DNA of 64,000 nt from Alphaproteobacteria bacterium (GTDB lineage: Bacteria; Pseudomonadota; Alphaproteobacteria; RF32; CAG-239), in NCBI GenBank assembly GCA_017484225.1, contig JAFUTN010000044.1, forward strand, positions 4,802 to 68,801. Direction: 5' to 3'. Under the pieces are notes generated by a model. It had not been told where the DNA came from. It saw only the letters and a list, made by a program, of their open reading frames with translations, and did no database searches. The position numbers and the translations under genes are program-made. Below are positions 49,208 through 49,580 of the stretch, piece by piece; position 1 is the stretch's first letter, and every line of letters starts with the position of its first letter.

Positions 49208-49236
49208 TTGACAAAATAAAATTTGTCTGCTATACA
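49208..49236 (+). promoter_or_regulatory. Strong sigma70-like promoter (TTGACA-17-TATACA) with no downstream ORF
   Basis: Perfect -35, 17-bp spacer and a -10 TATACA. The nearest + strand CDS (ihfA-like) is ~500 bp away and lies beyond an intrinsic terminator. Confidence 0.5.
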
Positions 49237-49242
49237 TAAGCG

Positions 49243-49580
49243 TATGAGAATTAATTATTGTGGTAGCATTATCCCAGCGAGGAAAAAACTACCCTGAAGC
49301 GTTTAACCCAAAAAGAAGTCACGCGCATGGAAAGACCTCCTCCTAAAAGTTTTTAACAGGATTTTTTTTGCATATGCTTAGGTGCCTGTTCCCCGTTTTT
49401 TTCGGAAGTAAAGCAATGCGATAAGTGTTTAACCTTAAAAAATTACAGCCTTCTAACAGATAGTGGCAACCAATTAAAAAAGGACATAGTATTTGGTCAT
49501 GCGGACGGTTGTTCCCCTTAATGATGACTAAACCCGGCTTACGTTCTCGCACGCAGAACAGATGTAAGCCGGTTTTTTAT
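49243..49580 (+). ncRNA. Candidate ~335-nt non-coding RNA (promoter to intrinsic terminator, no ORF)
   Basis: Bounded by the promoter above and the hairpin terminator aaacccggcttac...gtaagccggtt followed by TTTTTTATTTT (49530-49580). The only + strand ORFs inside are under 20 aa. Contains a CCUCCUCCU tract and several local hairpins. Confidence 0.4.

What the first reader, a model, noticed from the sequence alone, without database searches (positions are those of the whole stretch)
49208..49580. Near-consensus promoter and terminator delimit a ~335-nt transcript with no coding capacity between alr and the ihfA-like gene
TTGACA-17-TATACA (49208-49236) is among the best promoter matches in the window, yet the next + strand gene is 500 bp away and beyond a strong terminator (49530-49580). 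The enclosed ~335 nt have only ORFs of 19 codons or fewer and contain a CCUCCUCCU tract (an anti-Shine-Dalgarno-like pyrimidine run) and multiple hairpins. The length is in the range of RNase P RNA or tmRNA, but I could not find their universal motifs: the P4 GGAAAGUCCGGGC / ACAGAA-CCGGCUUA order, or a tmRNA tag reading frame and T-arm. It is therefore a candidate for a novel or divergent ncRNA.
Basis: seen in the sequence. Interest (0 to 1): 0.55.

Follow-up and report, generated by a model that had tools for sequence, protein, structure and literature searches.

The report
New structured small RNA gene family
The promoter-to-terminator stretch after the alanine racemase gene is a real, conserved, about 335-base non-coding RNA gene with two pseudoknots and a six-codon "Pro-Pro" mini reading frame; it matches no catalogued RNA family and its function is unknown.

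Summary
TTGACA-17-(TG)nTATACA lies at 49208-49236 and a long hairpin plus T6 at 49534-49578, bounding about 335 nt. Rfam 15 and ARAGORN find nothing there, in the window or in relatives.

The element is conserved, with 14 sequences (13 distinct) from uncultured gut and rumen Alphaproteobacteria. Twelve lie directly 3' of alr with varying downstream genes. One lies between unrelated genes, so it is its own gene.

The promoter (TTGACA-N14-TGn-TAnAnn) is kept in 13 of 14. Base pairing is supported by compensatory changes:
- 98.5% of cells are paired.
- 8 pairs changed on both sides, against 2.9±1.1 in shuffles (0 of 500).
- A crossing helix was tested by permutation (0 of 20000) and also shows a within-species U-A to C-G swap.

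The fold has a 5' hairpin, two pseudoknots and a 39-nt terminator hairpin that is almost invariant, even in its loop.

The "anti-SD" tract reads better as codons. A start codon, three codons and Pro-Pro occur in 13 of 14, with variable third positions. The second Pro codon ends 9-13 nt before pseudoknot 1.

Verdict: a new structured sRNA family. It is not tmRNA, RNase P RNA, 6S RNA or a cuckoo RNA. The mechanism is inferred only.

The parts
49132..49159 (+). Upstream promoter-like box (TTGACA-16-TATATT) immediately after the alr stop codon. It may be a second, tandem promoter.
   Evidence: It is the best-scoring site in the scan (11 of 12). TTGACAAT and a downstream ATTTGA are conserved after the alr stop in relatives. 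Its use as a promoter was not tested.
49208..49236 (+). Main promoter: TTGACA, a 17-nt spacer ending in TGc, then TATACA. The predicted start of transcription is about 49243.
   Evidence: The pattern TTGACA-N14-TGn-TAnAnn is kept at the same distance from the RNA in 13 of 14 family members; L036 is degenerate.
49243..49578 (+). Predicted transcript, about 335 nt, of a structured RNA.
   Evidence: It is bounded by the conserved promoter and terminator. Homologs were found with nhmmer at E = 1e-25 to 1e-77.
49262..49293 (+). 5' hairpin: outer stem GGUAG/CUACC, inner stem UCC/GGA, loop CAGCGA.
   Evidence: The motif (U/A)CC(C)-NRGCGA-GG(G)(A/U) recurs in 11 of 14 members with U-A/C-G and G.U variation in the stem. 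Larger family members add a second hairpin with a GUGA tetraloop here.
49327..49356 (+). Mini-ORF AUG GAA AGA CCU CCU CCU AAA AGU UUU UAA (MERPPPKSF*). It contains the 'CCUCCUCCU' tract at 49336-44, and its stop codon overlaps helix A.
   Evidence: The pattern start codon, three codons, Pro-Pro is present in 13 of 14 members. L092 uses GUG as the start and L036 has Ser-Pro. Third positions of the Pro codons vary (U, C, A) while positions 1-2 are fixed. Translation was not tested, and no conserved SD is present.
49355..49390 (+). Helix A of pseudoknot 1: AACAGG (49355-60) pairs with CCUGUU (49385-90).
   Evidence: 100% of cells are paired, with one compensatory A-U to G-C change.
49370..49419 (+). 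Helix X of pseudoknot 1: GCAUAUGCUU (49370-79) pairs with AAGCAAUGC (49411-19). It crosses helix A and encloses a small CCG/CGG hairpin (49393-49405).
   Evidence: The strands differ between species but stay complementary: GGUAU/AUACC, GCGUAU/AUACGC, AUUGU/ACAAU, GAUGUAU/AUACGUC, GGAAUCAC/GUGAUACC. Cognate duplexes average -11.7 kcal/mol against -8.2±0.7 for permuted partners (0 of 20000). The same-species contig L002 carries U49373C together with A49416G.
49466..49529 (+). Pseudoknot 2. S1: GCAACC (49466-71) pairs with GGUUGU (49507-12). S2: GGUCAU (49495-500) pairs with AUGACU (49524-29). S3: GGA (49503-05) pairs with UCC (49513-15).
   Evidence: In S2, 5 of 6 pairs show compensatory changes. 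S1 and S3 each have one, plus G.U variants.
49534..49578 (+). Terminator: a 9+5 bp hairpin with a CGCACGC loop and an AGAU bulge, followed by U6.
   Evidence: All 14 paired positions, and the loop apart from one C/U, are essentially identical in 13 distinct sequences (one unpaired cell, in L090), whereas neighbouring helices covary.

Best explanation
This is an independently transcribed gene for a structured small RNA of about 335 nt (290-410 nt in relatives). It belongs to a family that is not in Rfam and is found in uncultured gut and rumen Alphaproteobacteria.

Supported by the comparative evidence:
- A conserved sigma-70 promoter with an extended -10 drives it, and an intrinsic terminator ends it.
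- The RNA folds into a 5' hairpin domain, two H-type pseudoknots and a terminal hairpin whose sequence is frozen.

Inferred:
- It works as a folded RNA, binding a protein or the ribosome, rather than as a simple antisense seed.
- The conserved start-x3-Pro-Pro mini-ORF sits one ribosome footprint (9-13 nt) upstream of pseudoknot 1. Pro-Pro-Pro and Pro-Pro-stop are known ribosome-arrest motifs. The most likely mechanism is therefore that a ribosome pausing on the mini-ORF controls whether pseudoknot 1, and so the downstream domain, can fold.
- The invariant terminal hairpin would be the part recognised by a partner. What that partner is, and what the output is, remain unknown.
For: Conservation and independence:
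- Nine of 80 species-level alr loci, 2 of 8 further alr look-ups and 3 metagenome contigs carry the element.
- The L088 copy lies between a DUF1653-like ORF and a peroxiredoxin, not next to alr.
- Downstream genes differ between carriers and are sometimes convergent.
- The promoter is conserved.

Structure:
- 98.5-99% of cells are paired. There are 8-9 pairs with changes on both sides, against about 3±1.2 in shuffles (0 of 500) and 0-3 in slid controls.
- Helix X passes the permutation test (0 of 20000) and shows a within-species compensatory change.
- G.U pairs and the U-tract fit the + strand only.

Not coding:
- One-nucleotide indels, and a poly-U loop of 5, 8 or 9 nt within one species, break every longer frame.

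Mini-ORF:
- See the codon table.
- A 1-nt deletion in L003 changes the peptide tail but keeps PPP.
- A C-terminal Pro-Pro arrests termination 'in all genetic contexts tested' (PMC3834316).
- Polyproline stalls alter terminator use in engineered leaders (PMC5021804).

Frozen hairpin.
Against: - No expression data were available, so transcript ends, abundance and translation of the mini-ORF are all untested.
- No conserved Shine-Dalgarno sequence precedes the mini-ORF, whereas alr in the same genomes has an invariant GGAG.
- Six codons give little statistical power, and a C-rich RNA motif at a fixed distance from an AUG could mimic the pattern. L036 has Ser-Pro instead of Pro-Pro.
- The whole-molecule folding energy is not better than shuffled sequence.
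- There are only 13 distinct sequences, several of them closely related, so some compensatory changes are single events.
- The distribution is patchy. Most alr loci, including those of the window's closest relatives, lack the element. I could not check whether those genomes carry it elsewhere.
Confidence: 0.6

Rival explanations
1. It is a trans-acting, base-pairing sRNA. Its single-stranded C/U-rich tract is an anti-Shine-Dalgarno seed that blocks ribosome binding on target mRNAs, as in the alphaproteobacterial cuckoo/CcsR RNAs. The rest of the molecule is a stabilising scaffold with an Hfq-type terminator.
For: - In the window the tract CCUCCUCCU (49336-44) is a perfect anti-SD, complementary for example to the GAGGAG before alr.
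- The gene is stand-alone, with a strong promoter and a hairpin plus U-tail.
- C-rich loops are common sRNA seeds (PMC4615179).
Against: - The tract is UCUCCCCC, GGACCCCC or GCCACCC in half the family. That would put a C.A mismatch in the middle of a GGAGG duplex, and the changes fall on every third base.
- There is only one tract, and it does not sit in a hairpin loop. Cuckoo RNAs have 2-4 hairpins that each carry the motif.
- The alr SD is invariant and does not covary with the tract.
- Two covarying pseudoknots and a frozen 39-nt hairpin are far more than a seed scaffold needs.
Confidence: 0.17
2. It is a cis-acting element. Either it is the 3' UTR and terminator module of alr, or it is a leader/attenuator in which a Pro-codon leader peptide controls read-through of the terminator into ihfA.
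For: - Twelve of 14 copies lie directly after alr with no terminator in between, so alr transcripts must run into the element.
- In the window and in L036, ihfA-merR follow on the same strand.
- The element has a short ORF with rare-event codons plus a terminator, like classical attenuators.
Against: - L088 has neither alr nor ihfA nearby.
- The downstream gene differs between carriers or is convergent.
- The element carries its own conserved promoter.
- ihfA keeps its own conserved upstream region in species with and without the element.
- No conserved antiterminator pairing was found. The candidates are 4-6 bp between invariant segments and cannot be tested by covariation.
Confidence: 0.1
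3. It is a highly divergent copy of a housekeeping RNA of similar size, such as tmRNA (including the two-piece alphaproteobacterial form), RNase P RNA or 6S RNA.
For: - Its size is 300-400 nt.
- It has pseudoknots around an ORF-like segment, which recalls tmRNA.
- The hairpin's 5' strand, AACCCGGCUUAC, resembles my recollection of the RNase P P4 3' strand. This rests on memory and is not a test.
Against: - No Rfam tmRNA, alpha_tmRNA, RNase P or 6S hit appears even at E up to 10, nor at gathering thresholds in 12 loci.
- ARAGORN, which detects permuted tmRNAs, finds nothing.
- There is no T-arm, no CCA end and no conserved tag frame.
- CCGGCUUAC pairs locally with GUAAGCCGG in the terminator.
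- The element is absent from the same locus in most related species.
Confidence: 0.03
4. It is a decaying remnant of a pseudogene or a miniature mobile element, conserved only through recent common descent or transfer and without function.
For: - Its presence on the alr tree is patchy.
- It appears as a clean indel of about 470 bp relative to species in which alr abuts ihfA.
- L036 has a degenerate promoter, and L027 lacks pseudoknot 1.
Against: - Compensatory changes maintain several helices.
- The promoter and terminator are kept across species whose Alr proteins are about 70% identical.
- There is one copy per locus, no repeats in the window, no terminal repeats, and no match in phage, plasmid or viral collections.
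Confidence: 0.05

Closest known systems
tmRNA (SsrA), including two-piece alphaproteobacterial tmRNA
   Same: The size is similar. It is a stand-alone gene with a strong promoter and a terminator, and a short reading frame is embedded among H-type pseudoknots.
   Different: - There is no tRNA-like domain, T-arm or CCA end.
- The frame starts with AUG or GUG and ends in Pro-Pro rather than an Ala-Ala degradation tag.
- Both pseudoknots lie downstream of the frame.
- Nothing is detected by ARAGORN or the Rfam models.
Cuckoo / CcsR (alpha-r14, RSs0680) sRNAs of Alphaproteobacteria
   Same: It occurs in Alphaproteobacteria, and the window copy carries a CCUCCUCC(U) anti-SD-like tract.
   Different: - Cuckoo RNAs are 2-4 adjacent hairpins that each display CCUCCUCCC in the loop (PMC4615179).
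- Here there is one tract, it is not in a loop, it is not conserved as that sequence, and it is embedded in an RNA several times larger with pseudoknots.
Leader-peptide attenuators and arrest peptides (trpL/pyrL type; Pro-rich mgtL/mgtP; Pro-Pro-stop arrest)
   Same: A very short ORF whose conserved feature is a ribosome-pausing codon pair, placed just upstream of structured RNA and, further on, an intrinsic terminator.
   Different: - There is no conserved downstream gene to regulate.
- The terminator lies 180-250 nt away, beyond two pseudoknots.
- There is no conserved SD.
- The ORF has only 6-10 codons in most members.
Programmed frameshift and read-through stimulators (pseudoknot 5-9 nt downstream of the decoding site)
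   Same: The geometry matches: the codon after Pro-Pro would occupy the A site, and the H-type pseudoknot begins 6-10 nt after it.
   Different: There is no extended reading frame in any phase to shift or read into. Within-species indels break all longer frames.
Orphan structured bacterial ncRNAs found by comparative genomics (for example the raiA motif, HEARO, OLE)
   Same: It is an intergenic, independently transcribed RNA of several hundred nucleotides. Pseudoknots and highly conserved unpaired nucleotides suggest a protein-binding or catalytic-type fold.
   Different: It shows no sequence or structure similarity to any of them in Rfam 15. Its phylogenetic range is different, and it contains a mini-ORF.

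Membership tests
tmRNA | tRNA-like domain (acceptor stem, T-arm, 3' CCA) | tested here: not met
   ARAGORN finds no tmRNA in the window or in 11 related loci. Rfam tmRNA models give no hit even at E up to 10.
tmRNA | Conserved tag reading frame that ends in a proteolysis signal | tested here: not met
   The only conserved frame is M-x-x-x-P-P. The GAAACGAC region is not a conserved frame.
RNase P RNA (bacterial type A/B) | Long-range P4 helix formed by the conserved CR-I and CR-V sequences, and a match to the family model | tested here: not met
   There is no Rfam RNase P hit. CCGGCUUAC pairs with the adjacent GUAAGCCGG in a local hairpin in all 13 distinct sequences.
6S RNA | RNA of about 180 nt forming a long interrupted helix with a central bubble, and a match to the family model | tested here: not met
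   There is no Rfam hit. The comparative structure is two pseudoknots plus hairpins.
Cuckoo / CcsR RNA | 2-4 adjacent hairpins that each carry CCUCCUCCC in the loop (PMC4615179) | tested here: not met
   There is a single tract. It varies between CCUCCUCC, UCUCCCCC, GGACCCCC and GCCACCC, and no conserved hairpin encloses it.
Leader-peptide transcription attenuator | Short ORF with regulatory codons upstream of the terminator | tested here: inconclusive
   A conserved start-x3-Pro-Pro frame is present, but translation was not tested and no conserved SD is present.
Leader-peptide transcription attenuator | A regulated gene downstream in the same transcription unit | tested here: not met
   The downstream gene differs between carriers or is convergent.
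Leader-peptide transcription attenuator | Mutually exclusive antiterminator and terminator pairings | tested here: inconclusive
   Only 4-6 bp alternatives between invariant segments were found, and these cannot be tested by covariation.
Intrinsic (Rho-independent) terminator | G+C-rich hairpin followed directly by a U-tract | tested here: met
   A 9+5 bp hairpin at 49534-49572 is followed by U6 at 49573-78, and this is conserved in all members. Termination itself was not measured.
Independent sRNA gene | Own promoter, own terminator, and conservation independent of the neighbouring genes | tested here: met
   The promoter is conserved. The context varies, including one copy that is not next to alr. 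Transcription itself is not testable with these tools.

The most novel reading that the evidence does not exclude
The RNA is a translation-gated riboregulator of a kind not yet described. A six-codon arrest ORF (x3-Pro-Pro followed by a stop or another codon) holds a ribosome exactly at the foot of a pseudoknot. The dwell time of that ribosome depends on EF-P activity, prolyl-tRNA supply or termination and rescue capacity. It decides whether the downstream two-pseudoknot domain and its frozen hairpin fold into the active form. The sRNA would then report translation-elongation stress to an unknown protein or RNA partner.
Probability: 0.2. Interest if true: 0.8.

Novelty: new variant of a known kind. 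Interest (0 to 1): 0.6.

Why it matters
Gut and rumen Alphaproteobacteria of this lineage are uncultured, and almost nothing is known about their RNA biology.

An RNA of 300-400 nt with two pseudoknots maintained by compensatory changes, and a segment as conserved as tRNA, is the kind of molecule that usually turns out to bind a core cellular machine or to be a ribozyme or riboswitch-like sensor.

The mini-ORF geometry gives a concrete, testable hypothesis: a ribosome-arrest peptide coupled to folding of a stand-alone RNA rather than to a downstream gene. If confirmed, that would be a new regulatory layout.

Even without a function, the alignment and structure obtained here are enough to seed a new Rfam family and to search metatranscriptomes.

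Tried and rejected
- **Known RNA families.** Rfam gave only tRNA-Arg at gathering threshold in the window and nothing in 11 related loci. E-value mode on the region and on the larger L040 homolog gave only chance-level hits.
- **tmRNA.** ARAGORN finds no tmRNA or tRNA in the element.
- **Thermodynamic stability.** The z-scores are uninformative.
- **Mobile or foreign origin.** There is no match in viral contigs, phages or plasmids and no second copy in the window.
- **Protein-coding readings.** The antisense 19-aa ORF, the 69-aa minus-strand ORF and the 24-, 28- and 33-aa plus-strand ORFs are not conserved as frames. tblastn matches only track the invariant nucleotides and change frame. A 65-codon open frame beyond the mini-ORF stop in the window is broken by poly-U length variation within the species.
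- **tmRNA-like 'ANDN' tag at the GAAACGAC motif.** The frame is not conserved.
- **Pairing of the C-rich tract with the alr SD.** The SD is invariant and shows no covariation with the tract.
- **Two GUUUAAC copies pairing with each other.** This is not supported in L036.
- **Covariance model of pseudoknot 1 (R1).** It recovered all members but did not fix the register of helix X between the two sequence classes. Helix X was therefore tested by duplex energies and permutation instead.
- **Accessibility of the mini-ORF region.** The region is only slightly more unpaired than the rest of the RNA.
- **Search for further copies near alr.** No further copies were found in about 70 other alr loci or in 6 of 8 extra look-ups.
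Full report
**1. What is at the coordinates**

The window comes from a low-G+C (38%) uncultured alphaproteobacterium of animal-gut type. Around the finding the gene order is hydF(-), tatD(-), alr(+), ihfA-like(+), merR(+), glgP(-).

Between alr (stop at 49126) and ihfA (start at 49734) lie 607 bp.
- TTGACA at 49208-13, a 17-nt spacer ending in TGc, and TATACA at 49231-36.
- A long hairpin at 49534-49572 (9 bp, 5 bp, loop CGCACGC, a 4-nt bulge) followed by T6.

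The tool's promoter and terminator scans missed both only because of their rules: T is required at the last -10 position, and the loop must be 8 nt or shorter. In my own scan the promoter is one of 43 sites with at least 10 of 12 matches in the window, and among about 8 that also have the TG extension. It is good, but not remarkable on its own.

The ORF statement needs a correction. With GTG and TTG starts there are + strand ORFs of 24, 28 and 33 aa and a - strand ORF of 69 aa.

Folding energy is no better than shuffled sequence on either strand.

**2. It matches no known RNA family**

- Rfam 15 at gathering thresholds finds only tRNA-Arg(CCU) at 44713 in the whole window.
- In E-value mode the region gives only chance-level hits.
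- Eleven related loci give nothing at gathering threshold, and the larger L040 homolog gives nothing credible in E-value mode.
- ARAGORN, which also detects permuted tmRNAs, finds nothing.

**3. It is conserved, and it is its own gene**

Same-species contigs are 98% identical across the intergenic region.

A scan of one genome per GTDB species with the Alr protein returned 80 loci.
- In the closest species (Alr 75-79% identical) alr is followed by ihfA after only about 125-140 bp. About 470 bp, namely the promoter, RNA and terminator, are absent, while the ihfA upstream region is retained.
- nhmmer finds the element directly after alr in nine other species (L025, L026, L027, L034, L036, L037, L040, L041, L042), with E = 1e-25 to 1e-39.
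- In most of these ihfA is not downstream. The next gene is a 540-aa protein, a convergent 111-aa gene, or something else.

Further copies came from two sources:
- A metagenome scan with the hairpin sequence added L086 (identical to L089), L087 (identical to L037) and L088.
- Two of eight further alr look-ups added L090 and L092.

In L088 the element lies between a DUF1653-like ORF and a Bcp-type peroxiredoxin, with no alr nearby.

The element therefore travels as a unit with its own promoter. TTGACA-N14-TGn-TAnAnn is kept in 13 of 14 copies, and L036 is degenerate.

On an Alr tree most carriers form one clade, with two non-carriers inside it. The window and L027 sit elsewhere. This points to repeated loss, some transfer, or relocation; I could not scan whole genomes to decide which.

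There is no similarity to phage, plasmid or viral-contig sequences, and no second copy in the window.

**4. The RNA is structured**

*Counts on fixed alignments.* I counted pairs for a stated structure on the 11-sequence alignment (A3) and the 13-sequence alignment (A8) of the region from the mini-ORF to the terminator.
- 99.0% and 98.5% of cells form standard pairs.
- 9 and 8 pairs have changes on both sides, against 3.0±1.2 and 2.9±1.1 in shuffles (0 of 500 in each case).
- Versions slid by 1-3 columns give 0-3 such pairs.

*Helices, in window coordinates.*

| Helix | 5' strand | 3' strand | Support |
|---|---|---|---|
| A | AACAGG 49355-60 | CCUGUU 49385-90 | 100% paired, one compensatory change |
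| S2 | GGUCAU 49495-500 | AUGACU 49524-29 | 5 of 6 pairs compensatory |
| S1 | GCAACC 49466-71 | GGUUGU 49507-12 | one compensatory change plus G.U variants |
| S3 | GGA 49503-05 | UCC 49513-15 | A-U/G-C covariation |

S1's 3' strand lies in the loop closed by S3, so S1 crosses S2 and forms pseudoknot 2.

*Helix X.* GCAUAUGCUU (49370-79) pairs with AAGCAAUGC (49411-19). It crosses helix A to form pseudoknot 1 and encloses a small CCG/CGG hairpin.
- MAFFT and a covariance model could not hold its register across two sequence classes, so I tested it with duplex energies.
- All 12 members that have the region form a 10-12 bp duplex (-8.8 to -13.9 kcal/mol) with different sequences: GGUAU/AUACC, GCGUAU/AUACGC, AUUGU/ACAAU, GAUGUAU/AUACGUC, GGAAUCAC/GUGAUACC, and GACUU/AAGUC with an inserted pair.
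- Cognate strand pairs beat permuted ones (-11.7 against -8.2±0.7 kcal/mol; 0 of 20000 permutations).
- Within the window's own species, contig L002 has U49373C together with A49416G (U-A to C-G), and L003 has only the first change.

*The 5' domain.* It has a hairpin, (A/U)CC(C)-NRGCGA-GG(G)(A/U), with stem covariation in 11 of 14 members. Larger members add a second hairpin with a GUGA tetraloop.

*Strand.* G.U pairs (about 11 cells), the promoter and the U-tract all point to the + strand.

*Modularity.* L027 lacks pseudoknot 1. L090 and L092 carry extra hairpins. Predicted lengths run from about 290 to 410 nt.

**5. The terminal hairpin is frozen**

Across 13 distinct sequences whose other helices have accumulated compensatory changes, the 39-nt hairpin is essentially invariant in both stems and in the loop. 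The exceptions are one C/U in the loop, a variable 4-nt bulge and one lost closing pair in L090.

A plain terminator would be free to covary. The sequence itself must therefore be read by a partner, or it takes part in an alternative pairing. I found only short (4-6 bp) candidate alternatives between invariant segments, and these cannot be tested by covariation.

**6. The C-rich tract behaves like codons**

What is conserved is a start codon (AUG in 13 sequences, GUG in L092), exactly three codons, and then CCN-CCN.
- The first two positions of the Pro codons are C in 27 of 28 cases, counting all 14 sequences. The third positions are U, C or A.
- The peptides are MERPPPKSF (window), MERPPPNKH, MERPPPKKIS, MVRPPP..., MNKSPPKQLF, MNKSPPFKT, MNKSPP (three sequences), MNKGPP, MNRAPP, MCNMPP and MNKSSP (L036, the one exception).
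- Seven of the 14 stop within the seventh codon, six of them directly after Pro-Pro. In the others the position of the stop is not conserved.
- A 1-nt deletion in same-species contig L003 changes the tail but keeps PPP.
- The end of the second Pro codon is always 9-13 nt from helix A.

A ribosome holding that codon in the P site would reach to the foot of pseudoknot 1. This is the spacing used by frameshift and read-through pseudoknots (established knowledge, not tested here).

C-terminal Pro-Pro arrests termination in all contexts tested (PMC3834316), and polyproline pauses affect terminator use (PMC5021804).

Against translation:
- No conserved SD precedes the ORF, while alr has an invariant GGAG.
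- Predicted accessibility of the region is unremarkable.

**7. Longer ORFs are not conserved**

One-nucleotide indels between species, and poly-U length variation within the species (5, 8 or 9 nt), break all longer frames. tblastn matches of the window's ORFs only follow the invariant nucleotides and switch frame.

The ATG of the antisense 19-aa ORF depends on a base that varies between species.

**8. Interpretation**

Firm: this is a conserved, independently promoted and terminated, structured RNA gene of a family absent from Rfam 15.

Inferred, with less confidence: the mini-ORF is a ribosome-pause site that gates folding of pseudoknot 1, and the frozen hairpin is the recognition element for an unknown partner.

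The rivals are all weaker:
- An anti-SD base-pairing sRNA: the tract is not conserved as an anti-SD sequence, and the structure is far more elaborate than a seed scaffold needs.
- A cis element of alr or ihfA: the genomic context varies and the element has its own promoter.
- A divergent housekeeping RNA: all models and defining features fail.
- A non-functional remnant: compensatory changes argue against it.

**9. Comparison with known systems**

It resembles tmRNA in size and in having a frame among pseudoknots, but it fails every defining feature of tmRNA. It is not a cuckoo/CcsR RNA, which consists of 2-4 hairpins each carrying CCUCCUCCC in the loop (PMC4615179).

It is best filed with orphan structured bacterial ncRNAs. 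Its unusual extra feature is an arrest-type mini-ORF that is not linked to any downstream gene.

**10. Limits**

- There are only 13 distinct sequences, several of them close relatives.
- No expression or translation data were available.
- Genome-wide presence or absence is unknown.
- The resemblance of AACCCGGCUUAC to the RNase P P4 strand comes from memory only.

Noticed in passing
window 49132-49159 (+): A second, better-scoring promoter-like site (TTGACA-16-TATATT, 11 of 12) starts 6 nt after the alr stop codon, 76 bp upstream of the main promoter. TTGACAAT and a following ATTTGA are conserved after alr in relatives. It may be a tandem promoter or a regulator-binding site.
   Followed up: partly
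window 49210-49227 (+): GACAAA-ATAAAA-TTTGTC is an inverted repeat overlapping the -35 box and spacer of the main promoter. It looks like an operator but is not conserved in the other species.
   Followed up: partly
window 48015-48037; L025-L042, L090, L092 upstream of alr: The alr ribosome-binding region GGAGAUAAUAACAGCUAUG is nearly identical across species whose Alr proteins are only about 70% identical. In many species an in-frame AUG overlaps the GGAG (AUG GAG AUA AUA ACA GCU AUG, MEIITAM), so the true alr start, or a small upstream frame, is ambiguous.
   Followed up: no
window 49600-49733; alignment A4: The ihfA upstream region keeps a conserved block (AAAAAnnTGTTnATTT ... GTTTT) in species with and without the RNA element. 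It is presumably ihfA's own promoter or operator.
   Followed up: no
L027:5309-5516, L090:2854-3125, L092:2864-3137: The family is modular. L027 lacks pseudoknot 1 and the middle domain. L090 carries an extra hairpin of about 30 nt inside the loop of pseudoknot 1. L092 carries an extra hairpin after helix X and uses GUG as the mini-ORF start.
   Followed up: partly
window 49534-49545: The 5' strand of the terminator, AACCCGGCUUAC, looks like the conserved 3' strand of the RNase P RNA P4 helix as I remember it. Here it pairs locally. Whether this resemblance means anything was not tested.
   Followed up: no
window 49654-49625 (-): A TTGACA-18-TATCTT promoter-like site points antisense into the terminator and the RNA. 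The TTGACA is not conserved in species lacking the element.
   Followed up: partly
window 19700-23500: There is a cluster of high-scoring promoter-like sites on both strands, for example 19729(+) and 23462(-), each 11 of 12 with a TG extension, around a 700-aa and a 532-aa ORF.
   Followed up: no
window 44713-44789 (+): tRNA-Arg(CCU) is the only Rfam or ARAGORN hit in the 64-kb window.
   Followed up: no
L030:5100-6047 (-): In one species inside the carrier clade, a glycosyltransferase-like gene occupies the gap between alr and ihfA instead of the RNA. The alr 3' flank is a recurrent site of rearrangement.
   Followed up: no
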